Sequence record: MK295204
Strand: one strand, 5' to 3'
Length of the DNA: 64,000 bases
DNA from: Shigella phage vB_SdyM_006
The notes beneath the pieces were generated by a model. That model worked only from the letters and a program-made list of their open reading frames with translations, made no database searches and was not told the origin of the DNA. Position 1 is the stretch's first letter, and every line of letters begins with the position of its first letter. A program made the position numbers and the translations under genes. This document shows, one piece after another, positions 10,146 to 48,915 of this stretch.

Positions 10146-10340
10146 CTAATTAATGTAAACTATTTTTCCATTGATAGAGTATGTGATGGAAATTTCTTTT
10201 TTAAATCTATCTTTAATGCTTTCCGGGTAAATAGGAAGAATAGAATCGACAATTCTTAATTGGTCTTCTACACTCATAGAAGGACTAACAGGAAAGCCTT
10301 GTTTTTGAAGGATTCTAGACATTTGCATTAATGTTAGCAT
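10146..10340 (-). CDS. hypothetical protein
   Basis: 64 aa ORF, ATG start, stop-start overlap with gene 56. Confidence 0.3.
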   Translation of the reverse strand: MLTLMQMSRILQKQGFPVSPSMSVEDQLRIVDSILPIYPESIKDRFKKEISITYSINGKIVYIN

Positions 10341-10864
10341 TAATAACCTCGGCTTTGACGATCAAAGTTCTCTGCATTTTTTAAATAATACAAAACAAAG
10401 ATTTCTTCTGAAGACATACCAAGTCCAATAAGTTTATTCATAAAGAAATGCACTTGGTCAATCAATTCAAATTTTACTTCAAGTTGATCTGCTTCCGATA
10501 ACTCATCAAAAGGTTTTTTAGACATTTCTTCATGGCGAGCTTTCCAAGGTTTCCATACTGCTGATGCTTCTTTATCGCCATTAGACATACCGCCTAAAGA
10601 TGTATATAATTCACGGGTTTCGTCGTTTAAATAGTCATCTTGACTACGCATCCATTTAAGGATATCGCCACAAGTTTTTAATTCATCAGGTGACTGATTA
10701 TTAAATGGTTTATTTTTTGCTAAAAACACTTGCAATGATTTTTGCATATCAAGCATAACTTGTAAAGGATCACGTCCTGTTGAAACAATATCAGAATATG
10801 CTTCACGTGCTTTTGATAAAGAGTCTTCATCTACTAAAGTTGAACATACATTAAAATGAGCCAT
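10340..10864 (-). CDS. 56: dCTP pyrophosphatase gp56 (MazG-like)
   Basis: 174 aa; MAHFNVCS...DPLQVMLDMQKSLQ...ETRELYTSLGGMSNGDKEASAVWKPWK...EEIFVLYYLKNAENFDRQSRGY closely matches remembered T4 gp56. Confidence 0.8.
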   Translation of the reverse strand: MAHFNVCSTLVDEDSLSKAREAYSDIVSTGRDPLQVMLDMQKSLQVFLAKNKPFNNQSPDELKTCGDILKWMRSQDDYLNDETRELYTSLGGMSNGDKEASAVWKPWKARHEEMSKKPFDELSEADQLEVKFELIDQVHFFMNKLIGLGMSSEEIFVLYYLKNAENFDRQSRGY

Positions 10865-16961: not shown

Positions 16962-18288
16962 TATTATAACAGTTTTCTACTTCAGTTAATTTAGGATTAA
17001 AATAGTTAAGTTTATCTTTTAATTTATGTTTCATAAAAGACGATCGATGATATAACTTATCCTTTACAACATAATAATAACATGGTTCTGTTGTTCCAAT
17101 ATAAGTAAGGGCTAGTTTATTATACACATTACCTTGAGACCATCGTCTATTGGCATAAGATATAAACGATAAACCATTAAGAAGTCTAGAAGCTCCGCCA
17201 ACAACAGTATGTCCTATTTTAGAACATAATCTAAGAAGTTCTAGGTCATAATTATTATTATATCTAGTTTTACCTAAAACAGCCACTTGGACTAGTTCAT
17301 TATTATAAAATAGGCCTTTGTATATCGAACCAGGGCATTTTCCTTGTAAATGATTCTGTTCAACGAACTCATTAGCAAGCTGCTTATCTATATCCTTTAA
17401 TTCACACTTACGAGCATAAATTCTTTTAGATAACCCAAGTTTGTTTTTTATGACAGATTTCCATATTTCTTTTTTAATAGGGTCAATCCATTCGCTTTCA
17501 AAAATATGAAGAAGATGTATTCCTTTAGATTCACATAATTCGGTTTTATCTAAATGATACTTAGATAATCGTTTATCATCTTCTTTTGTTCCTGAAGAAT
17601 GCCAATAAATGCCATTAAATTCTATTGCCAGGGAATGACCAGGAACATAAATATCTAATTCATATGGTAATATAACTTGTTTAGTGTTGTGTTCACAGGA
17701 CACACCTAGAGAACACACGTAGTCATATACTTCTTGTTCTAATTGAGATTTTCCTGATAATGATTTAATAGGATACCCATGTTTTTCCATGAACTTAAAA
17801 GCAGAGGAATGAGAATTTAAAGATAGTCCAAAATGCTCAGCAACATAAGTCCAATGTTTATTTGATAAAGATTCCATTATCTCTTTATTTTTTATGTCAT
17901 CCAGGTTTTTATATTCCAATTGTAGTGGATGTTCACCTAGATTATATTTCTTTCCTCCCCATTTTCGTTGTTTACCGTATTTAGAAACACACGTTGCTTT
18001 TGTTTTGTCTTGGACTTTTTTAGATTTAATAGAACATCTATTAGAACAGACTTCAAGAAGTTTATTTCTATATACAATAACTGGTTTACCACAATGGCAT
18101 TTAGGTATATCATTAGAACAATTTATTCCATTTTCAAGAAACACAACAACCTGGGGTAAAGACACCCCAGGAAAGTTTTTAGTTATTTCTTGAAATAAGT
18201 CTTTACGGTTCTTTTCTAGCCAGGCTAAATTTCTTTTAGAAACTAATCGCCCATTAGAATAGCATAAAGATTTTATTTCATTTATCAT
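16909..18288 (-). CDS. putative freestanding nuclease (homing-endonuclease-like), Cys-rich N-terminus plus Vsr/DUF559-like PD-(D/E)xK motif
   Basis: 459 aa inserted between uvsX and gene 40 (absent in T4 there); CHCGKP...CSNRC; ELDIYVPGHSLAIEFNGIYWHS resembles Vsr-type endonuclease core; ATGA coupling to uvsX. Confidence 0.4.
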   Translation of the reverse strand: MINEIKSLCYSNGRLVSKRNLAWLEKNRKDLFQEITKNFPGVSLPQVVVFLENGINCSNDIPKCHCGKPVIVYRNKLLEVCSNRCSIKSKKVQDKTKATCVSKYGKQRKWGGKKYNLGEHPLQLEYKNLDDIKNKEIMESLSNKHWTYVAEHFGLSLNSHSSAFKFMEKHGYPIKSLSGKSQLEQEVYDYVCSLGVSCEHNTKQVILPYELDIYVPGHSLAIEFNGIYWHSSGTKEDDKRLSKYHLDKTELCESKGIHLLHIFESEWIDPIKKEIWKSVIKNKLGLSKRIYARKCELKDIDKQLANEFVEQNHLQGKCPGSIYKGLFYNNELVQVAVLGKTRYNNNYDLELLRLCSKIGHTVVGGASRLLNGLSFISYANRRWSQGNVYNKLALTYIGTTEPCYYYVVKDKLYHRSSFMKHKLKDKLNYFNPKLTEVENCYNNGLRRIWDCGNYIYAKL

Positions 18289-19436
18289 AGTTCGTCCATA
18301 GCATTAAGTTCTTCAATAGTAGAACGAATACCAGATGAACCAAAAACGTGTTCTTCCACTTTTAGATTCATTAAGTCTTCAACTTCTTGTTCTACTGATT
18401 CGTCATTAATCATCTGTCCTAATTTATAACGTGTTTCAATAGCTTCACGGAACGGGCCATGTTTTAATAATGGTCCCCAGAATGCTACGCATCTTGTATC
18501 TTTAGCACGCCAATTCTTTTCTTCAGGAACGATTTCACCCGTTTCTGTGTCTAAAAATGCTTGAGTATACCAGCCATTTTTAGGTTTAACAACAAATCCT
18601 AATTCCAGACCCATATCAAGCAAACCAGAATAAGGGTCAATACCGCCATCAAATGTGACATCAATAAAGAATTTAGATTTTTCTTTAACTGTACGTGATT
18701 TTTCGACATTTAATACAAATTGATAACCTTGAAGATCTGTACCATCTTTAATTTGACGTCGACCAATAATATATACATTATCAGCAGAATACATTACACC
18801 TGTTCCGCCTGTCATAACAGTTTTACTAAACATTTCCATTGTTTCAATTGTATGGTTAATCCCGACACATGGAATATCTTTTAATGTAAAATATGGAGTG
18901 GCCATACGGAACAATGATTTTAACTGCTTGGCCCGTGTCATATCTGCAACAGATTTTTCATTTAATGCATCTTCAACTTCTTTCTTAGAAGCCAGGTTAC
19001 CAATAGAGTCGATAAATACAATAACCTTTTCACCTCGTTCAATAGTTTCTAATTGATTAATCATATCAATTTTAAGTTCTTCAACGTTTTTAACTGGTGT
19101 ATGAACAACACGGTCTGGGTCAACACCCATAGAACGAAGATAAGCACTTGTGATACCAAATTCTGAGTCATAAAATAAGCAAATTGCATCTTTATATGCT
19201 TTCATATAAGCAGCAACTAATGTTAAACCCATATTTGATTTAAAGTGTTTACTTGGACCAGCTAAAATAGTAATACCAGATTGAAGGCCACCTGTGATAT
19301 CACCGGACAATGCAATATTTAATGTTGGAATTTTAGTTCTTACAACAGACTTCTCATTAAAAAACTTTGATTCACTAAGTACAGAAGTCATTTTATTTGT
19401 TGAAGCTTTCATTAAACGTGTTTTTAAGTCTGACAT
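18285..19436 (-). CDS. uvsX: UvsX recombinase (RecA/Rad51-like)
   Basis: 383 aa; MSDLKTRLMKASTNK...ILAGPSKHFKSN...near-collinear with remembered T4 UvsX. Confidence 0.9.
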   Translation of the reverse strand: MSDLKTRLMKASTNKMTSVLSESKFFNEKSVVRTKIPTLNIALSGDITGGLQSGITILAGPSKHFKSNMGLTLVAAYMKAYKDAICLFYDSEFGITSAYLRSMGVDPDRVVHTPVKNVEELKIDMINQLETIERGEKVIVFIDSIGNLASKKEVEDALNEKSVADMTRAKQLKSLFRMATPYFTLKDIPCVGINHTIETMEMFSKTVMTGGTGVMYSADNVYIIGRRQIKDGTDLQGYQFVLNVEKSRTVKEKSKFFIDVTFDGGIDPYSGLLDMGLELGFVVKPKNGWYTQAFLDTETGEIVPEEKNWRAKDTRCVAFWGPLLKHGPFREAIETRYKLGQMINDESVEQEVEDLMNLKVEEHVFGSSGIRSTIEELNAMDEL

Positions 19437-19490
19437 TTTTTATCCTTTAAAAATGACAAACATAATATTTTACTCAAATCACAAATTAAT

Positions 19491-20405
19491 TTAGATTTCC
19501 CAAATTGGGCCTTGAACTATAATATCTTCGTATTTAGGTAATGCATAAATGCATTGTACATTACATTTAAAATATATAAATTCTGCTAAACCTGGATGGA
19601 ATACTTTTTCTGGGTTTTCTTCATATATGATAGTTGGTTTAGACTTCAATGCATGGTAATAATTAGGCTTATTTAATTTTAATAATTCACAATCAGGATA
19701 TTTTTCTTTATCCCAAGAATCATTAGGGTCTGTTATAACCAATTTCAAATCATATCTTTTACATAGTTTATACACATAATCAAAATCATAACATTTATCT
19801 GATATCCTAAACGGAAAGAATACTGTATTCTTCCAATCAAAGTCTATACAAGATTGTTGCATAAACTTCTCAGGAACACCAGGACGAATTACTTCTTGTG
19901 TGACAAGTATTTTATCACTATACGCCCCATAACTAACTAGAACGTCTTTCTGGCACTTATTTAAGACTGTTGTATAGATACTTGAGTTAACAGATTCAAC
20001 ATCAGTATAAATGAACTCGTCTATATATGATCTTGGATTCAAAGGGTCTTTAGTAATATTAAAATTATAAAATACTGGAAAGGTTCCTTTATATCCTGTT
20101 ATATCAGAAACTACTGCATCTAAATGGTAAAATTCGGCAATAGAATCGATAATAAATGTATTATATTCCCAGAAATATTTTCGAGTTTTATATGCATTTT
20201 CTTGATAAACAACTTCTTCAAAAATCACGTTAGGAAAATATTCTTTAAGTTCAGTTATATCTTCGCATTGTAAACTATGAGGAATTACAATTACATCTCC
20301 ATCTTGGTACCGATTTAAATGTAATTGAAGATTACCGTCTTTTAACAGGGAGTATTTCCCTGTTTTATAAGACCTCATAGAATAGATAGGCACAATTAAA
20401 TTCAT
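19491..20405 (-). CDS. hypothetical protein in beta-gt position (candidate transferase, unproven)
   Basis: 304 aa, ATG start; occupies the slot of beta-glucosyltransferase next to gene 42 but shows no resemblance to remembered T4 beta-gt. Confidence 0.3.
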   Translation of the reverse strand: MNLIVPIYSMRSYKTGKYSLLKDGNLQLHLNRYQDGDVIVIPHSLQCEDITELKEYFPNVIFEEVVYQENAYKTRKYFWEYNTFIIDSIAEFYHLDAVVSDITGYKGTFPVFYNFNITKDPLNPRSYIDEFIYTDVESVNSSIYTTVLNKCQKDVLVSYGAYSDKILVTQEVIRPGVPEKFMQQSCIDFDWKNTVFFPFRISDKCYDFDYVYKLCKRYDLKLVITDPNDSWDKEKYPDCELLKLNKPNYYHALKSKPTIIYEENPEKVFHPGLAEFIYFKCNVQCIYALPKYEDIIVQGPIWEI

Positions 20406-20415
20406 AATTATTCTC

Positions 20416-21108
20416 TTATAGAAATGAATTTACATATTCTATATCACGTTCAAAAATATGCGCAGAAACCATTGAATGTGTGTAATGGCCAATTTCTACG
20501 TTACATTCTGAAGCAATATATTCCATTAATTTACCTTGTAAGTAAATATCAAGTTGTAATACTATAGCACAATTTTGAGAACGCATATGAGTATGGGCAT
20601 ATAATTTATTATCACGAATATAATATGTGACAGAATCAGTACATGGATATTCCAATGTTTCGTCGTCAAGTGATAATAATGCTTGGTCTTGTTCTTGAAG
20701 AATTTGAAAAACAACACGTCTCGAACCAGGTTTTTCTTTAAGTTCTTTAAGTAAAACTGGAAGTTGAGCTACAATACGAGGACCATAGAATGTATTGAAG
20801 TTTTCTGGAAGGATATCGCTTTTAGGCTTATCAATAAATTTAGCAACATTAGGATATTCTTTAAATGCTTCAATAGCGTTGGTCCCACCAGAAATCATAA
20901 ATTGCCAGAAATCTTCTGCGTACTTATAATCAATACGGTTTATTTTTTCGTCACTAAATTTATATGTAGAAGGGTCCATTACACGAAATGTTAATGACCC
21001 TATTTCTCTACATGGCCCAATACGAGAATCTACTTTAAATTCATATAGATCAATAACGGTTTCATTAACAGCTTTAAAAGCTTCTTCAAAAGTATTTCTG
21101 ATAATCAT
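20416..21108 (-). CDS. 42: dCMP hydroxymethylase-like (thymidylate synthase superfamily) gp42
   Basis: 230 aa; EYPCTDSVTYYIRD (active-site Cys region) and RSQNCAIVLQLD resemble gp42/TS motifs; position as T4 gene 42. Confidence 0.7.
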   Translation of the reverse strand: MIIRNTFEEAFKAVNETVIDLYEFKVDSRIGPCREIGSLTFRVMDPSTYKFSDEKINRIDYKYAEDFWQFMISGGTNAIEAFKEYPNVAKFIDKPKSDILPENFNTFYGPRIVAQLPVLLKELKEKPGSRRVVFQILQEQDQALLSLDDETLEYPCTDSVTYYIRDNKLYAHTHMRSQNCAIVLQLDIYLQGKLMEYIASECNVEIGHYTHSMVSAHIFERDIEYVNSFL

Positions 21109-21479
21109 AACATTTCCTGTAATTTTTTAGAGTAATTCATTAAAAACACTAATAATGGTTGTGCCTCTGGTGGTGTTTGTTGTAATTTTTTAGATTCAAC
21201 GACACCATTATACACTGGAAATCCTTTAGCCTTTTTGGTTTGACCTATTTTAATGGCTAATTTATTACGTGCATTAAACAATTCGATCATTTGTTTATCT
21301 ATTTCTTGAATAGCTTTACGATCTTCGTCTAATGTGTCTTTAACATGCCCTTTTAATTGTTCTTTTAATTGTTCTTTGATTAATCTTTGATTACATTCTT
21401 TAATAAATCCTTTAGGAAACGGTGGTACTTCTATCCCAGGATAAATAGGCCAAACCGGTGCGCCATCTATATGATGCAT
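21105..21479 (-). CDS. chorismate mutase-like (AroQ class) protein
   Basis: 124 aa; residues ~45-124 DRKAIQEIDKQMIELFNARNKLAIKIGQTKK...YSKKLQE align to AroQ catalytic positions (R, R, K, E, S, Q); ATGA coupling with gene 42. Confidence 0.45.
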   Translation of the reverse strand: MHHIDGAPVWPIYPGIEVPPFPKGFIKECNQRLIKEQLKEQLKGHVKDTLDEDRKAIQEIDKQMIELFNARNKLAIKIGQTKKAKGFPVYNGVVESKKLQQTPPEAQPLLVFLMNYSKKLQEML

Positions 21480-21664
21480 TATTTCACCTCTATTGAAATG
21501 TTTATACGTTCTACAGGTCTAGGAAGTTCTAAATAAATATTATTTCCTTTAGACCTTACTTTATATCCTTGGGCTTTAAATGTATCTATAATGATTTGTT
21601 TACAGCTACTTGAATAAATCACACCATTTTTATTAGGAGTATCGGTCTCAATTAATTTTACCAT
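21479..21664 (-). CDS. hypothetical protein
   Basis: 61 aa, ATG start, 1-nt overlaps on both sides. Confidence 0.3.
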   Translation of the reverse strand: MVKLIETDTPNKNGVIYSSSCKQIIIDTFKAQGYKVRSKGNNIYLELPRPVERINISIEVK

Positions 21665-21873
21665 TATTTACCTACTATTTTGCCAGTTTCTGGTCCTTCA
21701 TACAAAGTGGACTTTACTATAAAGTCACTTAACCCTTTATTATATCTTTTAAACTTTGACACTTCAGAATCACATATTAATTGAGCTAGATTCTCTTGAT
21801 ACATCATTAAGCAGGGAATAACCCTGCTTAAAAAGGTTTTCTTTGTATTAATTTTCTGGATATCTTGATTCAT
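21664..21873 (-). CDS. hypothetical protein
   Basis: Track start is GTG at 21882; first ATG at 21873; overlaps 3' end of next ORF. Confidence 0.25.
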   Translation of the reverse strand: MNQDIQKINTKKTFLSRVIPCLMMYQENLAQLICDSEVSKFKRYNKGLSDFIVKSTLYEGPETGKIVGK

Positions 21874-23014
21874 CGTCAGCACCGTCTAAAACTTTAATTT
21901 CAATTTCGTCTGGACGACGATCATTTTTAGATAATTGACGTTTATAATATCGTTCACAATATTTACAAGTCGTTCCGCAGATTTCGTTAGCACAATCAAA
22001 ATCAGGGTGTTTAAACCATCGTTTCTCTAAAAATCCATCTAACAATGATGTTTCTAAATACACCTGGTGTTCATGATCTAATTCTGATTTACCATTATAA
22101 ATTGTTTCTAATGGTTTCCAAAGTTCAAGTAAATTACCTGTGAATTGTTCTGATGCATAGGCTTCTAGAACTTTAACAATATATTCTGTTGTGCCTGTAC
22201 GTCCAGAAACTTTAAATTGAGAAATACCAATAGAACGATATAACTCTAAATCTTGTGGACGAACAAATCGAGTTCTAAGCCAGTTAAACGGGTCTGTATC
22301 ACGGGCTTTAATACAATGTTGCATTGGATATCCACCTAAAGATTGAGCATCTTCAGCTGTTATATCTGTAGAATGGAAAATATAACAAGAATCTCTGTAA
22401 GAACAGTGTGTTGTATATCCTTTACCAGCATTAGAACAAAATTCATTAACTAAGACTTCAAAAATAATATTATTTTTATTACAGAACTCAGCTGCACGTT
22501 TTAAGAACGAAACACTTCGGTTTTTATGAATACCACAACAAACTTTTTTAATATTATATTGGTCATGAAGATATTTTATTTGTGTGACAGCATCAACGTG
22601 TAGAATAGTCGAAACTTCAAATTGAATATGTTTATTTACTTCACGGATGATTTCCATAATAATTGGATTGGCAACAGTCACACGATAAACGCCAATACTC
22701 CATAAATATTGAACATAATCTTGGATGGCTTTCTTTTTCCAATCCTGTAGTTCACGTTTAGAGCCAGGGTTAATCGTGTTCAAAGTATAGTTGAAACATA
22801 TTCCTAAATCATTACAACGTTGTACGTATATTTCTAGTTGTTCGTCTTTGACATCCGGTAATCTAAAATCTGGTCGTGCTGCAGCAAAAGCCATTGCACG
22901 TGTACTTCCATAAACTTCATTAATAACACTATTAGGATATTTTTCGTTTAATTCAACGATTTTATCAAGTAAAGCCAAATCAAAATTTGTTCCTACTTTA
23001 AATGTATTTTTCAT
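21848..23014 (-). CDS. peptidase U32-family-like protein (RlhA/TrhP/UbiU-type, candidate Fe-S hydroxylase)
   Basis: Track start TTG 23032 lies in terminator hairpin; ATG at 23014 has AAGGA Shine-Dalgarno; GISQFKVSGRTGTTEY resembles U32 signature G[VI]xx[FL]K[IV]EGR; EFCSNAGKGYTTHCS Cys motif; C-terminal CxxxxCxxxCxxC. Confidence 0.45.
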   Translation of the reverse strand: MKNTFKVGTNFDLALLDKIVELNEKYPNSVINEVYGSTRAMAFAAARPDFRLPDVKDEQLEIYVQRCNDLGICFNYTLNTINPGSKRELQDWKKKAIQDYVQYLWSIGVYRVTVANPIIMEIIREVNKHIQFEVSTILHVDAVTQIKYLHDQYNIKKVCCGIHKNRSVSFLKRAAEFCNKNNIIFEVLVNEFCSNAGKGYTTHCSYRDSCYIFHSTDITAEDAQSLGGYPMQHCIKARDTDPFNWLRTRFVRPQDLELYRSIGISQFKVSGRTGTTEYIVKVLEAYASEQFTGNLLELWKPLETIYNGKSELDHEHQVYLETSLLDGFLEKRWFKHPDFDCANEICGTTCKYCERYYKRQLSKNDRRPDEIEIKVLDGADDESRYPEN

Positions 23015-23030
23015 TTTAGTCCTTATTACC

Positions 23031-23049
23031 AAAAAGGCCTTTCGGCCTT
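23031..23049 (-). terminator. intrinsic terminator hairpin (AAGGCC-GAAA-GGCCUU plus U-run)
   Basis: aaaaaggcctttcggcctt; near-identical copy at 47483-47502. Confidence 0.55.
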
Positions 23050-23052
23050 ATA

Positions 23053-23259
23053 TTATTTTTTCTTTAACTGTGTTGCTGCGTCTTCTAATTTAAGAGACAT
23101 ATCTTTAAAATTAACATCTTTGCCTTGAATACCAGAAACAATGCCAGAAACAAGAATCATAAATGCTAATAATACCGCAAACAATAATACAAAAACCGAA
23201 CACGCTACACCAATAAGAATACCTAATACAAGATTTTTAAAATAGTTTAATACTTTCAT
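23053..23259 (-). CDS. small membrane protein (imm-like by position)
   Basis: 68 aa, hydrophobic LVLGILIGVACSVFVLLFAVLLAFMILVSGIV; lies between genes 42 and 43 as imm in T4. Confidence 0.35.
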   Translation of the reverse strand: MKVLNYFKNLVLGILIGVACSVFVLLFAVLLAFMILVSGIVSGIQGKDVNFKDMSLKLEDAATQLKKK

Positions 23260-23819
23260 AATTGTCCTAATTTCGTGTTAATATAATTTGTTACATCTGC
23301 ATAAGAATAACCAGATAGAACATTATTATTTGAATCATGTTCTAATAACTTAAAATTTCTAATACCAAATTCTTCATAAAACATGTCATACACCGTAATG
23401 ATATCATTGAACTGTTCTTTTGATAACTTAATTAAGTCATCTTCAAAATCAGAATTAATTTTATTTCTAGTTAATCCGATAACCAAACATTTGTTTTTTA
23501 AATTAATAAGGTCCATAACATAATTATTAAATGTTTCTTGAGTCTCTTTAATAACAAATGATTTACCATGGTGTTTACGATAGATATAATAAACCATATT
23601 ACTTAAAAAGCAACGGTCTAATATATACTTTTTAGATGGGTCTAAATGATTTAGCATTGTATCAAAAATTGCTACTTCATTACGAGTAGCAATAGTAAAT
23701 AATCCATCTGAAGTTTTCTTAGGGAACTCTAATAAAGTAAATCCTTCATTATTGATTAAGTGTTGTATTAGAGTTGTTTTACCAGTATTATCAGGTCCTT
23801 CAATAGCAACAATATTCAT
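23256..23819 (-). CDS. P-loop kinase (thymidylate/nucleoside-kinase-like)
   Basis: 187 aa; MNIVAIEGPDNTGKTTL Walker A at N-terminus typical of small nucleotide/sugar kinases; ATGA coupling. Confidence 0.5.
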   Translation of the reverse strand: MNIVAIEGPDNTGKTTLIQHLINNEGFTLLEFPKKTSDGLFTIATRNEVAIFDTMLNHLDPSKKYILDRCFLSNMVYYIYRKHHGKSFVIKETQETFNNYVMDLINLKNKCLVIGLTRNKINSDFEDDLIKLSKEQFNDIITVYDMFYEEFGIRNFKLLEHDSNNNVLSGYSYADVTNYINTKLGQL

Positions 23820-24193
23820 TTTATCTCCGGAGTATATGGTTTGGCCGATTCTAAAGTAGACATTCTAACATGGTTTTTAAATGTTTGTGGGTCCATTGCT
23901 TTGTCATCGATAATCCAGTCATAAGATGGTTTATGGGTCAAAAGCTCATGATATTTCAATCCAATTTTATTAAGATTAATAACGAGTCCAGGAACTATTT
24001 CTGATGCTATTTTACCAGGTCCAACAGAAGTCATACCACGAGAAGTATAAAGTGTGATATGATGGCCCTGGTCGTACAGGGCGTTAATCATAGCTACCAT
24101 TTCTTCATCAGGTACAAAGTTCTCATAATCTCTATTATTATTCCATAATGTGATTGTATTATCAATGTCAAAAAACAGTTTTAAAGGTTTCAT
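23816..24193 (-). CDS. HAD-superfamily phosphatase
   Basis: 125 aa; LFFDIDNTIT = HAD motif I DxDxT; ATGA coupling with flanking genes. Confidence 0.55.
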   Translation of the reverse strand: MKPLKLFFDIDNTITLWNNNRDYENFVPDEEMVAMINALYDQGHHITLYTSRGMTSVGPGKIASEIVPGLVINLNKIGLKYHELLTHKPSYDWIIDDKAMDPQTFKNHVRMSTLESAKPYTPEIK

Positions 24194-25839
24194 TTAATTA
24201 AAATCCATTGTTTATGCAATTCTGATTGAATATGATTCATCATATAAACTTGTCCGGTTTCTCTATCATGGAGTTCCCATTTAGAAGGACATTTAGTAAT
24301 AATAGAGGCTGTCACGGGTTCTTTTGTTTCAGGAACTATTGCTCCATCTGTAAGGACACGTGGAAGCCCTTTAACAAATGAAGTTAATAAGTACATTCCA
24401 TAAAAATATGCAGATACCGCTTTTAATGGATTATTTTTAAAATATCCACCTAATGCTATCCAGATAATTCCTAGCCATAATTTATGTTTTGGCGTAACAA
24501 AATCTTGGTCTAAATAATCTGTCATTAAAGGTTTAATATCAACTATTGCTGAATCTCCTTCAATAGATAGACCACCCCATAATGGGTCTGCATTAAACTC
24601 GTCATATCCACTTAAAGCATAGAGAATTTTAGCTTCGTCATAAGTTCGTGGACCATAAAGTTCAGTGTGTCCAAAATATCCTCGTGGGTCAATAAATTTT
24701 ATTTCATTATCATCACTAAGCATAATATTACTAAAATTTAAGTCACCATGAATTAATTGATATTCTGTTTCTTTTAAATGAGGTAAAACTCTTTTTAAAA
24801 GACGGTTCAATGAGCCAATTTTAACCCCGTTAACATATTTGATTCCAAAAGAATCAATCATGTCTTGAATAGATGCACACCGGTCAATAACTTTTGTATA
24901 AGCTTCTTGTTTAATGTCGGCATCAATCTGATTCTTTTCAGGAATATATCTATCCCCAAATACACTTTCTTTGAGAATTTTTGGCAATAATTCTGGTGTA
25001 AACTTTTCATACATAGAAGAACCGTAGATTCTTTCCATTGTCATGATATTACATGTTTCTGTAGGTGTCATATAAATCATAGGAACATTACGGACACCTT
25101 TTAAATTAAGATACCAATTAAGTTCCTTTTTCTGAAGTTCTTCACCTTTAGGGTTTAAAGCTTTTTTAATAACATAACCATCTTTTAATGTAATTTCATT
25201 AAACTCTCGATTTAATTCTTTACTATCATGGGCTTGCCTTAATTTAGGAATATCGCCAATATCAATTAAATCAAATAAACTTTCTTCTTGAAAATCTGAA
25301 GCTTTTAAAAACTCTACAAAATCATGCCCTTTAGTTATATAATCAGGAATAGGTTCTAAAAAATCAAAATTTGTTTGATAGATACCAACGATGTTTCCAC
25401 CTGTAGCACCAACGTTATCGATTTTTCCATCTTTAAAACTATATCGACATTTATCCCCGTAAGTATAAATTTTATTTTTACCCCATTCGAATTCACGTCG
25501 TCCGTAAAATTTAGGAATAACATCACACCAATTGTAAATGACATTATGTCCATCAACATCAGAATGGATTTTATTAATTGCATACATAGAACCGTATGCT
25601 TCATCAACACATCTAACAGTTATAGTTAAGCCCATAGTTTTTGCATAACCTTGAACAAGGTCTTTAAATTTACTATGGACTACAACAATAATTTCTTCTG
25701 CCCCAACATTAGTATACAAATCATATAAATGTTTTAAAACAGTATGTTGTTTATAATTGACTAAGACTTTTGGAATATGTGATGTAATAGGATAAAGTCT
25801 GGTCGCAAGACCAGAACCAAGAATAACAACTTTCTTCAT
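24190..25839 (-). CDS. bifunctional sugar-1-phosphate nucleotidyltransferase / APH-choline-kinase-like kinase
   Basis: 549 aa; N-terminal VVILGSGLATRLYP (G-x-G-T-R-L NTP-transferase motif); C-terminal LIHGDLNFSNIML...IDPRG (Brenner kinase motif). Confidence 0.6.
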   Translation of the reverse strand: MKKVVILGSGLATRLYPITSHIPKVLVNYKQHTVLKHLYDLYTNVGAEEIIVVVHSKFKDLVQGYAKTMGLTITVRCVDEAYGSMYAINKIHSDVDGHNVIYNWCDVIPKFYGRREFEWGKNKIYTYGDKCRYSFKDGKIDNVGATGGNIVGIYQTNFDFLEPIPDYITKGHDFVEFLKASDFQEESLFDLIDIGDIPKLRQAHDSKELNREFNEITLKDGYVIKKALNPKGEELQKKELNWYLNLKGVRNVPMIYMTPTETCNIMTMERIYGSSMYEKFTPELLPKILKESVFGDRYIPEKNQIDADIKQEAYTKVIDRCASIQDMIDSFGIKYVNGVKIGSLNRLLKRVLPHLKETEYQLIHGDLNFSNIMLSDDNEIKFIDPRGYFGHTELYGPRTYDEAKILYALSGYDEFNADPLWGGLSIEGDSAIVDIKPLMTDYLDQDFVTPKHKLWLGIIWIALGGYFKNNPLKAVSAYFYGMYLLTSFVKGLPRVLTDGAIVPETKEPVTASIITKCPSKWELHDRETGQVYMMNHIQSELHKQWILIK

Positions 25840-25886
25840 TTCAAATCCTTATTAATTTAGTGTATAAGAATAGTATCATTAAATTC

Positions 25887-26519
25887 TTATAAGCTCTCAC
25901 TTTTAAGGGCTTTACCTAATGACCCACCAGGATGAAATGTTAAAAAGTCTTGACGTGTAAATCCACGTTCTGCAGATAGATTAATAGCAAAGGTGTCAAT
26001 TAGTGCTAAAAGAACTGTTGTGCTTGTAGTTGGAGCGAGATTGTTCTCATCTGATTCTACAACGTTACCAGTACAAAAATCATAGTCAAAAATAGAACGT
26101 GTACCTTGGTATAGGTCTTCATTACAATGTAACAAGATTTGTTTAACATTTGGTCTAATCTGACGTAGATGTTGAGCAGCATATAAAAGTTCTTGTGTTT
26201 TACCAGAACGAGAAATATGAATAATAACATCATTAGGACCAATAAAACCTGCATCGCCGTGAGAATAATGAGCTGTATTTAAATACATACTTGGAATTCC
26301 AAGTGAAGCAAATGTTTCTGAAGCCTTAGTGGCGATATTAGCATTTTTACCAATGCCTGTTATGATTACTCGACTTTCATAGTTAGATAAACCAGGCGCT
26401 CTTAGAACGTCTAATATTTGATTATACTTATCGGCATCCATTGTAATAGTAAGTCCAAGCGCATGTAAAGTTTTAGCTTGAATCATAATAGAACTACAAG
26501 CTCTTTTAATTGGATTCAT
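25887..26519 (-). CDS. SIS-domain sugar-phosphate isomerase (KdsD/GutQ-like arabinose-5-phosphate isomerase)
   Basis: 210 aa; VIITGIGKNANIATK...HISRSGKTQEL...APTTSTTVLLALIDTFA...HPGGSLGKAL aligns with KdsD SIS domain. Confidence 0.65.
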   Translation of the reverse strand: MNPIKRACSSIMIQAKTLHALGLTITMDADKYNQILDVLRAPGLSNYESRVIITGIGKNANIATKASETFASLGIPSMYLNTAHYSHGDAGFIGPNDVIIHISRSGKTQELLYAAQHLRQIRPNVKQILLHCNEDLYQGTRSIFDYDFCTGNVVESDENNLAPTTSTTVLLALIDTFAINLSAERGFTRQDFLTFHPGGSLGKALKSESL

Positions 26520-26969
26520 TTATTTTTTCTCGCAAAGTTTCTTTAATGTAGGAATGTCATACTTAACAACCTGAGAATAATCACCAGTTGTCATTGCATT
26601 TTGTTGCATAACACGGTATGTGATAACAGCTCGTTGATAACAATTGAGCTCAACTTTTTTAGGTTGTTCCATTGGAGGAAGATTTCTATCTTTAGCTAAT
26701 TGAGCGTCAACTCGTGCTGAAGCTTCTGCGATTTCAGCACGAACACGTAATCTGTCTGCTTCTCTTTTGGCATCAAGTTGACGTTCTAATTCAGCTCTAG
26801 ATTGATATTGTGGATTTTTATTAAAATAAGCGATTCCATTAGATGTTGATGCTAACTGCCCAGATTGTTGCATTCTAGCTTCACGTTTAGCTTTATAAGC
26901 TTCGTATTCAGCTTGGCTCATACATCCAGTCATAGTTAAACAAATAAGGCCGATTAAAATGTGTTTCAT
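26520..26969 (-). CDS. predicted lipoprotein
   Basis: Track start TTG; ATG at 26969 with GAGGAG Shine-Dalgarno; MKHILIGLICLTMTGC signal plus lipobox; Ala/Arg/Gln-rich mature part. Confidence 0.45.
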   Translation of the reverse strand: MKHILIGLICLTMTGCMSQAEYEAYKAKREARMQQSGQLASTSNGIAYFNKNPQYQSRAELERQLDAKREADRLRVRAEIAEASARVDAQLAKDRNLPPMEQPKKVELNCYQRAVITYRVMQQNAMTTGDYSQVVKYDIPTLKKLCEKK

Positions 26970-27024
26970 AATATGTCTCCTCAATAAATTTAATCGGAAC
27001 TATATCACTTATTTTGTGTCAGCA

Positions 27025-29736
27025 TTAAAAATCAAACAAATCAGCTAAAGAAGATTTTTTCTCATAATCGATTTTAGCGGCTGATGTAAATGATGTTAAA
27101 GGTTTAACAAAAGTTTTATTAAACAATTCTTGATAGTCAAGATTCCGTTTAACAAATTCTTCAATTTCTTGTGGTAAATCAGATCCAGATGGCCAAGAAA
27201 TACATTTTTCATTGAACGGATTGCCTTCTTTTAATGGAAGAACTTTAACTTTCTCACCTTCAAAAATAGGAGGAGCACCATCAACATGTTTTGTTGCTCG
27301 ATTATATGCTAATACACCTTTAACATGATAAGGACATCCTTTAGTAGGAAATCCTTCTGCATCAGAATACTTCATAAGATTATTAGCACTTGATACAGAA
27401 GCTATTGAGCTATAATCGTTTTCTCTGAATTGTTTTTCAAATTCTTTATAATATTCTTGTAATGATTCTTCACCTTCTTGAAGCATTCTTCGAATACATT
27501 CTTTTAACGCAACTTGACAACTTTTTGGTGTACTAGATTTTTGTGTTTCTAGACCCATGATTTTTAATTCTGGTGTTTCGTATCTGGTACCTTCCATATC
27601 CCAGACATTTAATGCATATCGTTTCTTAGCAGTCCAGAATCCACCAAGACCTTTTGTTCCTAGAGGAGGACCAGCAATGGCTTCTCGGTCCATGAACATC
27701 AAATGTTCTCTGTTGTTCATGTATTCTTTTAATTCACGATACGCTGTATCAATTGCAGGTTCCATTTTCTTAGAAGCAAATTCTGATAAGAAATCTACTA
27801 ATTTTTGTGTATCATTATTAAATTTGTGTTCAATTTTATCAACTAAATTATCAACACACACATAAACAGAATCCGTGTCACCTGCAATGACATAAGAATG
27901 ATTTTCTGTTCCAAGTGTTGCATTTAAATATTCGTTAATTTTACGTTCAATCCATTGGATTGCTAGTTGTCCAAATAATGTAATAGCTGATGCATTTCGT
28001 AAATCATAGTAACGGAAGTAAATATTACCTAAAGCGCCATAACAAGAGTTAATCAATAATTTTCTGTTAATTTGGGCTGTATTAGATGTTACAATAACCC
28101 ACTCGCAGTATTCTAATAATTTCTCTAAAGATTCTTTAGAAGCAGTATTTAATAAAGCTTTAAAGTCTTCATTAAAATCAAATCTGCCGTCAACTTCTGG
28201 TAATGTTAAGTTACCAAATTGATCTTTATGAATTGCAGCTTTTACTAATTCTGCATTACGTTTAGCTGCTAACATATATCCTTTATGTTCTTTACGCTGT
28301 AAGAATACTTTTTCTACTTCTTCAGGAATAACGCCTTTATATGTTTTATCATACATCCAACCATTAGGAGAACATGAATAAACATCACTTGGTCTTGGAG
28401 CAGTTTTATTAATATAATCCGACATTGGCGAAACAGGGAAGCTTCCTACTAATGTTTCTGGACTAATATTACCTTGTCTAATGATACTTGGGTACAGACT
28501 TGTAAGGTCAAAACTTAAGACCCAACGATACGCATTAGGAATAGGTTCTTTAACATAAGCACCTGGATAACTCTGTCTGATATGTTGTTTTAATTCAGGA
28601 ATAACTTTCTTTTTATCTTTAAGTGAGTTAAAGATAATTGCATCCCAAGTTTTAATAGGACTAAACACTGATTGAATTTGCATTTTAGAATAATATCCAA
28701 GAGATAATGCAAGTTCAATAAACTGACGTTTCTTATCAATTGCCTGTACACGATTAACGTCTTCGATGTTATAACTAATATATCGGTTATGATTTAACAT
28801 CCTTAATTTATTAATCGCCCCGTCATATTTTAATTTACCTTTACCAGTTTCGTATTCAGCAATAAAATCTAAATTATAAGCTGGCTGATTAGTAAAACTA
28901 AATTTCTTATATAAGTCTAAATAATCAAGAATAGAAACACCCATGATATCAAAAATTTGTTTATCACCATAAATGTTTTGAATTACTTTAGAACGTATTT
29001 TACGACATGGAGACATTCTCTTTGCAACTCGTTCACCTAAAACATTAGTGATTCTATTAATGATATAAGGAATATCAAAACCTTCTACGTTCCAACCAGT
29101 AAAAATAACAGGAGGTTTTTCTTCCCATAATCGAACATATTCTAATAATAATTCTTCTTCTGTTTCGAAAGGAAGATAAACAACTTTATCAATAATTTCT
29201 TGAGATAATTCGTCACCACCTTGATTTTCTGGTAACGCAGCTAATTTAGAGTCCCATTTAGAGACACTGCCAAAAGCAGAATTTAATAAGTCAAATACAT
29301 AAAACTTATCATCAATCGAATCGTAATGGGTGATTGCATCTATTTCGTATAGAGCTAGTTCTGGTTTAGGAAAATCAGTACCAGTAACTTCGATATCACA
29401 GTTTGCAATACGAATGTATTTTCGATTATACATAACATCGTAAGCATAATTATCGCTGATGTACGCTAATTTAAAATCATCCATACCCATGACTTCTTGG
29501 CCTACATCTTTCATTCGTTTAGACCAATCACGTGCATCTTGGATAGTCTTAAATTTTTTACGTGTACAATACTTTCCATAGATATCTTTATATTTTGTTT
29601 CAGTTCCTTCTACTGTGTGCCAAAACAATGATGGTTCATATTGTACCGTTCGACGTCGTTCTTTACCATCTGAATCGATATATCGTTCAAAAATGTTATT
29701 ACCAATTTGTTCTACATTTAAATAAAATGGTTTCAT
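27025..29736 (-). CDS. 43: DNA polymerase gp43 (family B)
   Basis: 903 aa; MKPFYLNVEQIGNNIFERYID..., exo and pol motifs (FDIE, YGDTDS-like GDTDSVYV, SLYPSII) collinear with remembered T4 gp43. Confidence 0.9.
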   Translation of the reverse strand: MKPFYLNVEQIGNNIFERYIDSDGKERRRTVQYEPSLFWHTVEGTETKYKDIYGKYCTRKKFKTIQDARDWSKRMKDVGQEVMGMDDFKLAYISDNYAYDVMYNRKYIRIANCDIEVTGTDFPKPELALYEIDAITHYDSIDDKFYVFDLLNSAFGSVSKWDSKLAALPENQGGDELSQEIIDKVVYLPFETEEELLLEYVRLWEEKPPVIFTGWNVEGFDIPYIINRITNVLGERVAKRMSPCRKIRSKVIQNIYGDKQIFDIMGVSILDYLDLYKKFSFTNQPAYNLDFIAEYETGKGKLKYDGAINKLRMLNHNRYISYNIEDVNRVQAIDKKRQFIELALSLGYYSKMQIQSVFSPIKTWDAIIFNSLKDKKKVIPELKQHIRQSYPGAYVKEPIPNAYRWVLSFDLTSLYPSIIRQGNISPETLVGSFPVSPMSDYINKTAPRPSDVYSCSPNGWMYDKTYKGVIPEEVEKVFLQRKEHKGYMLAAKRNAELVKAAIHKDQFGNLTLPEVDGRFDFNEDFKALLNTASKESLEKLLEYCEWVIVTSNTAQINRKLLINSCYGALGNIYFRYYDLRNASAITLFGQLAIQWIERKINEYLNATLGTENHSYVIAGDTDSVYVCVDNLVDKIEHKFNNDTQKLVDFLSEFASKKMEPAIDTAYRELKEYMNNREHLMFMDREAIAGPPLGTKGLGGFWTAKKRYALNVWDMEGTRYETPELKIMGLETQKSSTPKSCQVALKECIRRMLQEGEESLQEYYKEFEKQFRENDYSSIASVSSANNLMKYSDAEGFPTKGCPYHVKGVLAYNRATKHVDGAPPIFEGEKVKVLPLKEGNPFNEKCISWPSGSDLPQEIEEFVKRNLDYQELFNKTFVKPLTSFTSAAKIDYEKKSSLADLFDF

Positions 29737-48708: not shown

Positions 48709-48915
48709 TTAAAGCCCTTTATTCTTAATAAAATGAGTATTCCATGTATTTGAATTGAATGCCCAGATTAAAATAGCAAGCCATCCAAAAACAGTCCATC
48801 CAAAAACAAAGTTAGCAATAAAAATAGAAGTCTTTGCACAATGATCTCTGTACCATGCCACAAAGAATGGTAAAAAATAAACAACAACTAAAGCTATCAG
48901 AGTTAAAAGTTCCAT
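48709..48915 (-). CDS. hypothetical membrane protein
   Basis: 68 aa, hydrophobic. Confidence 0.3.
   Translation of the reverse strand: MELLTLIALVVVYFLPFFVAWYRDHCAKTSIFIANFVFGWTVFGWLAILIWAFNSNTWNTHFIKNKGL

What the first reader, a model, noticed from the sequence alone, without database searches (positions are those of the whole stretch)
19491..26984. The uvsX-gene 43 interval is rebuilt as a hypermodification island; no T4-type alpha-gt or beta-gt recognised
In T4 this interval holds segA, beta-gt, 42, imm. Here gene 42 is retained (with gp56 dCTPase elsewhere, implying hmC-type DNA), but the beta-gt slot holds an unrelated 304-aa ORF and about 6 kb of biosynthetic genes are inserted. The 47-55 interval, where T4 has alpha-gt, contains only small ORFs. 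Together this argues for a non-glucose cytosine modification.
Basis: partly seen in the sequence, partly recalled or inferred. Interest (0 to 1): 0.7.

Follow-up and report, generated by a model that had tools for sequence, protein, structure and literature searches.

The report
Arabinosyl-5-hydroxycytosine DNA modification gene island
This stretch of a T4-like Proteus phage carries the already described RB69-type gene set that replaces cytosine with sugar-coated 5-hydroxycytosine (not hydroxymethylcytosine), and it also holds an unexplained, extremely conserved enzyme pair that may let the phage make that base without oxygen.

Summary
The window is 99.5% identical to Proteus phage phiP4-3 (Bragavirus). 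The uvsX–gene 43 interval (19491–26984, all minus strand) is, gene for gene, the RB69 gp45–gp55 cluster. Lee et al. (NAR 2026), and as cited there He et al. 2026 and Mahler et al. 2025, showed that this cluster makes arabinosylated 5-hydroxycytosine.

It is a hypermodification island. No T4 alpha-gt or beta-gt exists anywhere in the genome. The sugar is not glucose.

The "gene 42" is not a dCMP hydroxymethylase. It is 73% identical to RB69 gp48, only 25% to T4 gp42, and carries the D169N signature of 5-hydroxy-dCMP synthases. The base is therefore predicted to be 5hoC, not hmC. The "unrelated" 304-aa ORF is the GT-B DNA arabinosyltransferase. Only one such transferase was found, which predicts mono-arabinosylation.

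The main finding is therefore already known, and Bragaviruses are named in the 2026 paper.

What is not explained in the literature I could read is a peptidase-U32 protein. It is more conserved than the DNA polymerase and is paired with a chorismate mutase, and the related genome also encodes a DAHP synthase. In uncultivated phages the same U32 sits next to DAHP synthase–chorismate mutase fusions, in clusters without the TS-type hydroxylase. I propose it is a prephenate-dependent, O2-independent cytosine 5-hydroxylase.

The parts
19491..20405 (-). DNA arabinosyltransferase 1 (Aat1-like, GT-B fold), 304 aa
   Evidence: It is 49-54% identical to RB69 gp46:47 and 56% to the Serratia phage LC53 homologue. 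It has no Pfam hit. The AF2 model has pLDDT 95.5. The top PDB folds are UDP-sugar GT-B enzymes, with MshA 3c4q at TMq 0.60-0.62.
20416..21108 (-). 5-hydroxy-dCMP synthase (thymidylate-synthase superfamily), 230 aa; not a T4-type dCMP hydroxymethylase
   Evidence: Pfam Thymidylat_synt, E 5.6e-14. It is 73% identical to RB69 gp48 against 25% to T4 gp42. It carries the signature L143E, D169N, N177D.
21105..21479 (-). AroQ-type chorismate mutase, 124 aa, with a ~50-aa N-terminal extension
   Evidence: Pfam CM_2, E 9.5e-11. The EcCM catalytic residues R11, R28, K39, E52, S84 and Q88 are conserved. It is 37% identical to the LC53 chorismate mutase. Its stop overlaps the start of the TS-homologue gene by 4 bp.
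21479..21664 (-). 61-aa ORF, unknown function
   Evidence: Only a PHROG of unknown function matches. It overlaps both neighbouring genes by 1 bp.
21664..21882 (-). 72-aa ORF, unknown function (RefSeq annotates a shorter 47-aa version)
   Evidence: Only a PHROG of unknown function matches.
21848..23032 (-). Peptidase-U32-family protein with two invariant Cys clusters, 388-394 aa. Proposed prephenate-dependent, O2-independent pyrimidine C5 hydroxylase.
   Evidence: Pfam Peptidase_U32 scores 42.7 bits against a cut-off of 22.4. It is 83% identical to RB69 gp50, which is more conserved than gp43 or UvsX. Invariant Cys are C199, C210, C216, C240 and C347, C352, C356, C359. The AF2 model has pLDDT 92.9 and its top fold match is the U32 protein 5d88. 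The best E. coli paralogue by hhalign is RlhA.
23053..23259 (-). 68-aa predicted membrane protein, unknown function
   Evidence: The sequence is hydrophobic. Only a PHROG of unknown function matches.
23256..23819 (-). Thymidylate-kinase-like nucleotide kinase, 187 aa (RB69 gp45 homologue, at a different position in the cluster)
   Evidence: It is 39% identical to RB69 gp45. The Pfam Thymidylate_kin hit is weak. PHROG thymidylate kinase, E 1e-35.
23816..24193 (-). HAD-family sugar phosphatase, 125 aa (AfhF / RB69 gp51 homologue)
   Evidence: It is 66% identical to RB69 gp51. NCBIfam capsule biosynthesis phosphatase, E 4e-11.
24190..25839 (-). Bifunctional sugar-1-phosphate nucleotidyltransferase (N-terminal) and sugar kinase (C-terminal), 549 aa (AfhE / RB69 gp52:53 homologue)
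   Evidence: Pfam NTP_transferase covers residues 3-81 and kinase families cover residues 338-407. It is 47-58% identical to RB69 gp52 and gp53.
25887..26519 (-). D-arabinose-5-phosphate isomerase (SIS domain, KpsF/GutQ/KdsD type), 210 aa
   Evidence: Pfam SIS. NCBIfam KpsF/GutQ E 3e-31 and KdsD E 4e-29. It is 71% identical to RB69 gp55.
26520..26984 (-). 150-154-aa predicted lipoprotein. It sits in the slot of T4 imm/imm.1 and is probably not part of the modification pathway.
   Evidence: It has a signal peptide with a lipobox-like LTMTGC. Only a PHROG of unknown function matches. LC53 has a signal-peptide protein in the same slot.
10340..10864 (-). gp56 dCTPase, 174 aa. It removes dCTP so that only the modified nucleotide is incorporated.
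   Evidence: It is 62% identical to RB69 gp56, E 1e-81.

Best explanation
The interval is the Bragavirus version of the RB69-type arabosyl-5-hydroxycytosine (ara-5hoC) pathway.

Steps inferred by orthology to enzymes tested in RB69, DLP3 and HY126:
- gp56 dCTPase returns dCTP to dCMP.
- The TS homologue (20416-21108) hydroxylates dCMP to 5-hydroxy-dCMP, using flavin and O2.
- The phage dNMP kinase and host enzymes raise it to the triphosphate, and gp43 incorporates it into DNA.
- In parallel, the SIS isomerase turns ribulose-5-P into arabinose-5-P.
- The 549-aa kinase/nucleotidyltransferase and the HAD phosphatase convert that into UDP-arabinofuranose.
- The 304-aa GT-B transferase puts arabinose on the 5-OH of cytosine in DNA.

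Only one transferase is recognisable, so I predict a single arabinose per cytosine.

A further step is my inference and is not shown anywhere I could read. The U32 protein (21848-23032), fed by the adjacent chorismate mutase and by the phage's own DAHP synthase, would be a second route to the 5-hydroxyl. It would be O2-independent, with prephenate as oxygen donor, as in RlhA, TrhP and UbiU/V. That would let the phage replicate in anoxic hosts. The confidence given here is for the ara-5hoC assignment. I put the U32 part at about 0.5.
For: Identity of the window:
- It is 99.5% identical to Proteus phage phiP4-3 over 7.7 kb.

Orthology to the RB69 cluster:
- TS homologue 73%, U32 83%, HAD 66%, NT-kinase 47-58%, SIS 71%, transferase 49-54%, Tmk-like 39%.
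- The gene content matches RB69 gp45-55 and Serratia phage LC53.

Individual enzymes:
- The TS signature D169N/N177D/L143E is present. PMC13326640 gives D169N as predictive of 5hodCMP synthases and names Bragaviruses among the syntenic clusters.
- The transferase has a GT-B fold.
- The dCTPase and the dNMP kinase are present.
- No alpha-gt or beta-gt exists anywhere in the genome.

For the U32 part:
- It belongs to the U32 family by Pfam and by fold.
- It has nine invariant Cys across 54 homologues that go down to 46% identity.
- Its closest E. coli paralogue is the 5-hydroxycytidine synthase RlhA.
- A chorismate mutase lies next to U32 in 13 of 15 T4-like IMG/VR loci and in Thanatos-2, despite rearrangement of the cluster.
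- DAHP synthase is found in about the same phage genomes as U32. Both are missing from Dhakavirus Bp7: U32 from its cluster, and DAHP synthase from the syntenic pseT-cd slot, the only place checked.
- Acinetobacter phage PhT2 lacks U32 in its cluster, and at most 3 of 57 Acinetobacter-phage records carry U32 by count.
- In 39 uncultivated-phage loci, U32 sits with the transferase (26 loci), the NT-kinase (18 loci), and DAHP synthase and/or chorismate mutase, including fusions (12 loci). None has a 5hodCMP-synthase-type TS within 10 kb.
Against: Against the main assignment:
- No chemistry has been done on this phage, so the sugar and the number of sugars are inferred.
- A second transferase too divergent to detect cannot be excluded. 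Aat1 itself has no Pfam hit.

Against the U32 part:
- RB69 gp48 plus a dNMP kinase is enough to make 5hodC in E. coli, and Acinetobacter phage DLP3 makes tri-arabinosyl-5hoC without U32 (PMC13326640). U32 is therefore dispensable in air.
- Dhakaviruses infect E. coli without it.
- No U32 protein has yet been shown to hydroxylate in vitro (PMC10990095).
- The Cys spacing differs from the canonical CX6CX15CX3-4C.
- Known U32 substrates are RNA or quinones, not nucleotides.
- The 10-kb flanks cannot exclude a TS-type hydroxylase elsewhere in the uncultivated genomes.
- Two key papers (Mahler 2025, He 2026) could not be read and may already assign this gene.
Confidence: 0.85

Rival explanations
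1. One reading: the phage makes hydroxymethylcytosine with a retained gene 42, then attaches a novel non-glucose group to the hydroxymethyl.
For: A TS-superfamily gene occupies the gene 42 slot next to a transferase-sized ORF. dCTPase is present. N177D (dCMP specificity) is shared with T4 gp42.
Against: The protein is only 25% identical to T4 gp42 against 73% to RB69 gp48, which was shown to make 5hodCMP (PMC13326640). D169N is present, whereas T4 gp42 keeps D169.
Confidence: 0.03
2. The base is 5-hydroxycytosine, but the attached sugar is not arabinose, or it is further altered. In this reading the U32 protein acts on the sugar or the heterocycle as a reductase or epimerase, as annotated in two 2026 papers.
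For: PMC13326640 Table 1 labels RB69 gp50 'sugar or heterocycle reductase'. PMC13390438 lists an 'epimerase' in the cluster. U32 travels with the sugar-activation genes in uncultivated phages. Rhizobium phage RL38J1 puts hexoses on 5hoC.
Against: The SIS enzyme is a KdsD/GutQ-type arabinose-5-P isomerase. According to PMC13326640, AfhE and AfhF suffice to make UDP-arabinose from A5P. DLP3 makes arabinosyl-5hoC without U32. A sugar role does not explain the repeated linkage to chorismate mutase and DAHP synthase.
Confidence: 0.1
3. The U32 protein, chorismate mutase and DAHP synthase are host-takeover genes unrelated to DNA. They would either hydroxylate host tRNA or rRNA (as TrhP and RlhA do) to tune translation, or simply boost aromatic amino-acid supply.
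For: The closest E. coli paralogue is the rRNA enzyme RlhA. In phiP4-3 the DAHP synthase lies far from the island, among auxiliary genes.
Against: U32 is embedded inside the DNA-modification cluster in every T4-like locus. In uncultivated phages it lies directly beside the transferase, the NT-kinase, DNA polymerase III alpha and dCMP deaminase. The host already has RlhA and TrhP.
Confidence: 0.1

Closest known systems
RB69 / HY126 / Bas46-47 arabinosyl-5-hydroxycytosine cluster (RB69 gp45-gp55; Afh and Aat genes)
   Same: The location is the same, between uvsX and gene 43. The enzyme set is the same: 5hodCMP synthase with D169N, GT-B arabinosyltransferase 1, U32 protein, HAD phosphatase, kinase/nucleotidyltransferase, arabinose-5-P isomerase and Tmk-like kinase. 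Identities run from 39% to 83%.
   Different: A chorismate mutase and two small ORFs lie between the TS homologue and U32, where RB69 has the unrelated gp49. The Tmk-like gene is moved. There is no homologue of the second arabinosyltransferase RB69 gp3. An extra lipoprotein gene lies next to gene 43. No chemical data exist for this phage.
T4 glucosyl-hydroxymethylcytosine system (gp42, alpha-gt, beta-gt, gp56)
   Same: The strategy is the same: destroy dCTP, modify dCMP with a TS-superfamily enzyme, then glycosylate the base in DNA with a GT-B enzyme. The genes occupy the same map slots.
   Different: The hydroxyl sits directly on C5 rather than on a hydroxymethyl group. The hydroxylase depends on flavin and O2 instead of folate. 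The sugar donor is made by the phage. No alpha-gt or beta-gt homologue exists.
Bacterial U32 prephenate-dependent hydroxylation proteins (RlhA for ho5C2501 in 23S rRNA, TrhP for ho5U34 in tRNA, UbiU/UbiV for anaerobic ubiquinone)
   Same: It has the U32 domain and TIM-barrel fold, invariant Cys at the position of the Fe-S motif, and a genomic link to prephenate synthesis. It would be a second, O2-independent route beside an O2-dependent enzyme, as with TrhO/TrhP and UbiIHF/UbiUV.
   Different: The sequence relationship is very distant: 18-21% identity, hhalign E 8.5e-6 at best. The Cys spacing is different. It has an extra invariant C-terminal CX4CX3CX2C. The presumed substrate is a deoxynucleotide. 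No activity has been tested.

Membership tests
RB69-type arabinosyl-5-hydroxycytosine DNA modification cluster | TS-superfamily 5hodCMP synthase with D169N (plus N177D and an acidic residue at L143) | tested here: met
   Alignment A2 shows L143E, D169N and N177D. The protein is 73% identical to RB69 gp48.
RB69-type arabinosyl-5-hydroxycytosine DNA modification cluster | UDP-arabinose supply: arabinose-5-P isomerase, bifunctional kinase/nucleotidyltransferase and HAD phosphatase | tested here: met
   The domains are present and the proteins are 47-71% identical to RB69 gp55, gp52:53 and gp51.
RB69-type arabinosyl-5-hydroxycytosine DNA modification cluster | GT-B DNA arabinosyltransferase (Aat1 / RB69 gp46:47) | tested here: met
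   It is 49-54% identical to RB69 gp46:47. The model has a GT-B fold with pLDDT 95.5.
RB69-type arabinosyl-5-hydroxycytosine DNA modification cluster | dCTPase and dNMP kinase to channel the modified nucleotide | tested here: met
   gp56 is 62% identical to RB69 gp56. The phiP4-3 genome has a DNMK-family kinase, E 6e-54, outside the window.
RB69-type arabinosyl-5-hydroxycytosine DNA modification cluster | Second or third arabinosyltransferase (RB69 gp3 type) giving poly-arabinosylation | tested here: not met
   No tblastn hit at E <= 1 anywhere in the genome. This feature is optional in the family. Its absence predicts a single arabinose.
RB69-type arabinosyl-5-hydroxycytosine DNA modification cluster | Arabinosyl-5-hydroxy-dC replacing dC in virion DNA | not testable with these tools
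   This needs LC-MS/NMR of nucleosides from the phage.
T4-type glucosyl-hmC system | dCMP hydroxymethylase (gp42 type, D169 retained) | tested here: not met
   The protein is 25% identical to T4 gp42, and D169 is replaced by N.
T4-type glucosyl-hmC system | alpha- and/or beta-glucosyltransferase | tested here: not met
   The best tblastn hit in the whole genome is E 0.079 over 27 aa. Neither is among the top 50 fold matches of the 304-aa protein.
Peptidase-U32 prephenate-dependent hydroxylases (RlhA/TrhP/UbiU/UbiV) | Peptidase_U32 domain and fold | tested here: met
   Pfam scores 42.7 bits against a cut-off of 22.4. The top PDB fold match is the U32 protein 5d88, E 1.9e-7. hhalign to RlhA gives E 8.5e-6.
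Peptidase-U32 prephenate-dependent hydroxylases (RlhA/TrhP/UbiU/UbiV) | Four conserved Cys binding a 4Fe-4S cluster (CX6CX15CX3-4C) | tested here: inconclusive
   C199, C210, C216 and C240 are invariant in 54 homologues and lie at the equivalent place. The spacing is CX10CX5CX23C. No coordinates were available to check the geometry.
Peptidase-U32 prephenate-dependent hydroxylases (RlhA/TrhP/UbiU/UbiV) | Dependence on prephenate and independence from O2 | not testable with these tools
   There is only indirect support, from adjacency to chorismate mutase and to DAHP synthase or DAHPS::CM fusions.
AroQ chorismate mutase | CM_2 domain with catalytic residues R11, R28, K39, E52, S84 and Q88 (EcCM numbering) | tested here: met
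   Pfam CM_2 scores 42.2 bits against a cut-off of 27. All six residues align with E. coli PheA.

The most novel reading that the evidence does not exclude
The U32 protein in this island is a prephenate-dependent, oxygen-independent 5-hydroxylase of dCMP, or of another pyrimidine DNA precursor. The phage boosts its co-substrate with its own chorismate mutase and DAHP synthase. In T4-like phages of facultative anaerobes it would back up the O2/flavin-dependent TS-type hydroxylase, in the same way that these phages carry both aerobic and anaerobic ribonucleotide reductases. In many uncultivated phages, whose transferase/sugar clusters carry U32 and DAHPS::CM but no TS-type hydroxylase nearby, it would be the only hydroxylase. 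That would be the first U32 enzyme acting on DNA precursors, and the first viral use of prephenate as an oxygen donor.
Probability: 0.5. Interest if true: 0.8.

Novelty: new member of a known kind. Interest (0 to 1): 0.45.

Why it matters
As a finding about this phage it adds little. The island is the published arabinosyl-5-hydroxycytosine system, and the useful correction is that the base is 5hoC, not hmC. That correction changes which restriction, CRISPR and type IV systems the DNA should resist or trigger, which matters if this Proteus phage is used therapeutically.

The part worth following is the U32 / chorismate mutase / DAHP synthase trio. The known hydroxylase of these phages needs O2, yet their hosts live largely without it. 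A prephenate-driven route would explain three things:
- why a 'peptidase' is the most conserved gene of the island;
- why T4-like phages carry shikimate-pathway genes;
- how a large group of uncultivated phages might hydroxylate their DNA bases.

It would also give a soluble nucleotide substrate for the still unreconstituted U32 hydroxylase chemistry.

Tried and rejected
- Promoter and terminator consensus scan of 19000-27200: promoter-like sites were no more frequent than in shuffles (43 against 46.6), so it was uninformative.
- PDB sequence search with the U32 profile found nothing at E <= 0.01. Only the fold search found 5d88.
- RB69 gp49 as a degenerate chorismate mutase was rejected. It has no Pfam hit at E 10, no BLAST similarity, and no hit to a phage-CM HMM.
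- The 248-aa DAHP_synth_1 proteins next to U32 as KDO-8-P synthases (which would use the arabinose-5-P) were rejected. DAHP synthase models score about 237 bits against about 63 bits for KDO8PS.
- The TS homologues near U32 in loci L021 and L043 as 5hodCMP synthases were rejected. Both keep L143, D169 and N177, so they are ordinary ThyA type.
- A search for a second transferase gave nothing: RB69 gp3 and Aat1 paralogues by tblastn, and Pfam on ten other large unknown ORFs.
- The papers of He et al. 2026 and Mahler et al. 2025 could not be read. Full-text searches linking U32, RlhA, prephenate or chorismate mutase to phage 5hoC found nothing.
- Composition shows no foreign-DNA signal: GC is 0.28-0.35 across the island, like the rest of the window.

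Full report
**What the window is.** A megablast of 19400-27100 against GenBank phages gives 100% coverage at 99.5% identity to Proteus phage phiP4-3 (Bragavirus, host Proteus penneri). Other Proteus T4-like phages match at 80-83%. The coordinate offset between window and record changes by 245 bp between the island and the dCTPase gene. The window is therefore a very close relative of the deposited genome, or a variant of it, not a byte-identical copy.

**Checking the observation.**
- The finding's coordinates match ORF boundaries exactly.
- Between uvsX (18285-19436) and DNA polymerase (27025-29736) lie twelve minus-strand ORFs. Most overlap their neighbours by 1-4 bp, as expected of one transcription and translation unit.
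- T4 has segA, beta-gt, 42, imm and imm.1 in this interval.
- I fetched the rest of the phiP4-3 genome and searched it with T4 alpha-gt and beta-gt. The best hit was E 0.079 over 27 residues.
- The gene 47-gene 55 interval holds only two small ORFs.
- A gp56 dCTPase is at 10340-10864, 62% identical to RB69 gp56.
- GC content across the island is like the rest of the window.
- So the descriptive part holds, with one exception discussed next.

**The 'gene 42' is not gene 42.**
- The 230-aa ORF (20416-21108) is a thymidylate-synthase-superfamily protein.
- It is 25% identical to T4 gp42 and 73% identical to RB69 gp48.
- Lee et al. (NAR 2026, PMC13326640) showed that RB69 gp48 and DLP3 gp80 convert dCMP to 5-hydroxy-dCMP. 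These enzymes bind a flavin and take the oxygen from O2. The authors give D169N (E. coli ThyA numbering) as the predictive signature.
- In my alignment the window protein, RB69 gp48 and the LC53 homologue have L143E, D169N and N177D. T4 gp42 has L143D, N177D and keeps D169.
- The predicted base is therefore 5-hydroxycytosine, not hydroxymethylcytosine.

**The rest of the island is the RB69 gp45-55 cluster.** Identities to RB69 are, and the RB69 map is.
- 304-aa ORF: 49-54% to gp46:47, arabinosyltransferase 1.
- U32 protein: 83% to gp50.
- HAD phosphatase: 66% to gp51.
- Kinase/nucleotidyltransferase: 47-58% to gp52:53.
- SIS isomerase: 71% to gp55.
- Tmk-like kinase: 39% to gp45.

Domain searches agree: NTP_transferase plus a kinase domain, SIS/KdsD-type arabinose-5-P isomerase, and a capsule-type HAD phosphatase. 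According to PMC13326640, He et al. showed for phage HY126 that the bifunctional enzyme (AfhE) and the phosphatase (AfhF) make UDP-arabinofuranose from arabinose-5-P. The same paper lists Bragaviruses among the genera with syntenic clusters.

**The 304-aa ORF and the number of sugars.**
- The ORF has no Pfam hit.
- An AlphaFold model built on 49 homologues has pLDDT 95.5.
- It matches GT-B UDP-sugar enzymes best, including MshA 3c4q, the same top hit reported for RB69 gp46:47. So it is 'unrelated' to beta-gt only at the sequence level.
- RB69 gp3, the second arabinosyltransferase, has no homologue in the genome.
- Ten other large unassigned ORFs showed no transferase domain.
- I therefore predict mono-arabosylation. 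The caveat is that divergent transferases can escape these searches.

**What the readable literature does not explain: the U32 protein and its partners.**
- Lee et al. label RB69 gp50 'sugar or heterocycle reductase'.
- Another 2026 paper lists an 'epimerase' among the cluster's sugar-modifying genes.
- Yet gp50 is a Peptidase_U32 protein.
- All four characterised bacterial U32 members work in O2-independent hydroxylation that requires prephenate. RlhA makes 5-hydroxycytidine 2501 in 23S rRNA and needs Fe-S clusters and prephenate (PMC5727448). TrhP makes ho5U in tRNA, beside the O2-dependent TrhO (PMC6599085). UbiU/UbiV work in anaerobic ubiquinone synthesis with prephenate as oxygen donor (PMC10990095).

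**Evidence gathered on the U32 hypothesis.**
1. Directly next to the TS homologue, and three genes from U32, the window encodes an AroQ chorismate mutase. All six EcCM catalytic residues are conserved.
2. The phiP4-3 genome also encodes a bona fide class I-alpha DAHP synthase, scoring 389 bits on TIGR00034 against a cut-off of 173. It lies outside the window. These are the committed step and the branch-point step towards prephenate.
3. U32 is 82-83% identical between Bragavirus, Mosigvirus and Winklervirus. That is more conserved than gp43 (65-69%) or UvsX (64-75%).
4. Across 54 homologues down to 46% identity, nine Cys are invariant. C199, C210, C216 and C240 lie where the U32 Fe-S motif lies. 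A C-terminal CX4CX3CX2C motif (C347, C352, C356, C359) is also invariant.
5. The model (pLDDT 92.9) matches the U32 structure 5d88 best. Among the E. coli paralogues the family profile aligns best with RlhA (E 8.5e-6). TrhP scores 0.0023, UbiU 0.0054 and UbiV 0.19.
6. In GenBank phages, U32 occurs in 221 records, all at 80% identity or more, on Enterobacterales and Shewanella hosts. DAHP synthase occurs in 212 records with almost the same taxon counts and many shared accessions.
7. The 5hodCMP synthase occurs in about 340 records, including 57 Acinetobacter and 10 Rhizobium phages, whose hosts are strict aerobes (my own knowledge). Too few of these carry U32 to appear in the counts. Acinetobacter phage PhT2 has the cluster without U32 or chorismate mutase.
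8. Dhakavirus Bp7 (E. coli) lacks U32 in its cluster. It also lacks DAHP synthase in the syntenic pseT-cd slot; the rest of its genome was not searched.
9. A chorismate mutase directly follows U32 in 13 of 15 T4-like IMG/VR loci. It also does so in Shewanella phage Thanatos-2, where the pair has moved to another place in the cluster. Mosigviruses such as RB69 are the exception.
10. I examined 39 loci from uncultivated phages whose U32 is 40-53% identical. The transferase homologue is present in 26, the NT-kinase in 18, and DAHP synthase and/or chorismate mutase within 10 kb in 12.
11. Those 12 include class I-beta DAHPS::CM fusions wedged between the NT-kinase and U32 (L045, L053), a chorismate mutase right after U32 (L063-66, L072), and a DAHP synthase right after U32 (L020, L040).
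12. Only two of the 39 loci have any TS homologue nearby, and both keep the ordinary ThyA residues.
13. Several of these loci are close relatives of each other, and flanks are limited to 10 kb. The counts are therefore not independent events, and a distant TS-type hydroxylase cannot be excluded.

**Proposed mechanism, with status of each step.**
- Shown by others for orthologues: dCMP is converted to 5hodCMP by the TS homologue with flavin and O2. UDP-Araf is made by the isomerase, AfhE and AfhF. Arabinose is transferred onto 5hoC in DNA.
- Inferred here by orthology and signature: the same happens in this phage, with one arabinose.
- Inferred here from family membership, conserved Cys, gene linkage and host distribution: the U32 protein hydroxylates the same precursor without O2, using prephenate made available by the phage's chorismate mutase and DAHP synthase. 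Because gp56 removes dCTP, a phage whose only hydroxylase needs O2 would have no cytosine nucleotide to polymerise in an anoxic cell.
- The window also carries NrdD and a GrcA-like glycyl-radical protein. That is consistent with growth in anoxic hosts.
- I put this hypothesis at about 0.5. The points against it: U32 is dispensable in air, some coliphages lack it, U32 chemistry has never been reconstituted in vitro, the Cys spacing is non-canonical, and two key papers could not be read.

**Verdict.**
- The hmC premise is wrong.
- The island is an already described system in a genus already named as carrying it.
- The residual interest lies in the U32 / chorismate mutase / DAHP synthase association, which points to a testable oxygen-independent route to 5-hydroxycytosine.

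Noticed in passing
window 16909-18288 (-): A 459-aa ORF is inserted between gp40 and uvsX. It belongs to a PHROG homing-endonuclease family (E 5e-152). It also has weak similarity to Mom-like DNA-modification proteins: Pfam PF25680 at 24 bits (below cut-off) and phrog_1384 at E 3e-7. T4 and RB69 have no gene at this position.
   Followed up: partly
phiP4-3 record NC_055737.1 33007-33969 (locus L004; outside the window): A bona fide class I-alpha DAHP synthase (TIGR00034, 389 bits) lies between pseT and cd. The slot is empty in Dhakavirus Bp7. Across GenBank phages its distribution nearly coincides with that of the U32 gene.
   Followed up: yes
window 55950-56318 (-) and 41085-42956 (-): A GrcA-like autonomous glycyl-radical protein (Pfam Gly_radical, E 9e-17) and the anaerobic ribonucleotide reductase NrdD are present. 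This is equipment for growth in oxygen-poor hosts.
   Followed up: partly
window 5944-6885 (-): A 313-aa ORF with no Pfam hit has a C-terminal part resembling MazG-like pyrophosphatases (phrog_1247, E 4e-19). It may be a second nucleotide-pool-cleansing enzyme besides gp56.
   Followed up: no
window 26520-26984 (-): A 150-154-aa predicted lipoprotein (lipobox-like LTMTGC) lies next to gene 43, in the slot where T4 has imm/imm.1. Serratia phage LC53 has a signal-peptide protein in the same place. It may be a superinfection-exclusion function. A T4 imm homologue lies elsewhere in the window (about 48736-48915, E 3e-8).
   Followed up: no
loci L023 7972-9000 and L024 7980-9011; L012 1-249: In several uncultivated phages a radical-SAM (SPASM) protein lies immediately upstream of the transferase-U32 pair and next to DNA polymerase III alpha. 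This suggests a further, uncharacterised step in those DNA-modification clusters.
   Followed up: no
window 21848-23032, residues 347-359 of the U32 protein: The C-terminal motif CX4CX3CX2C (…FDCANEICGTTCKYC…) is invariant in 54 homologues. Its last three Cys follow the CX3CX-aromatic-C pattern typical of radical-SAM clusters, although the position in the protein is atypical.
   Followed up: partly
window about 10340 versus 19400 relative to NC_055737.1: The offset between window and deposited phiP4-3 coordinates changes by 245 bp. The window therefore carries an indel relative to the record somewhere between the dCTPase gene and uvsX.
   Followed up: no
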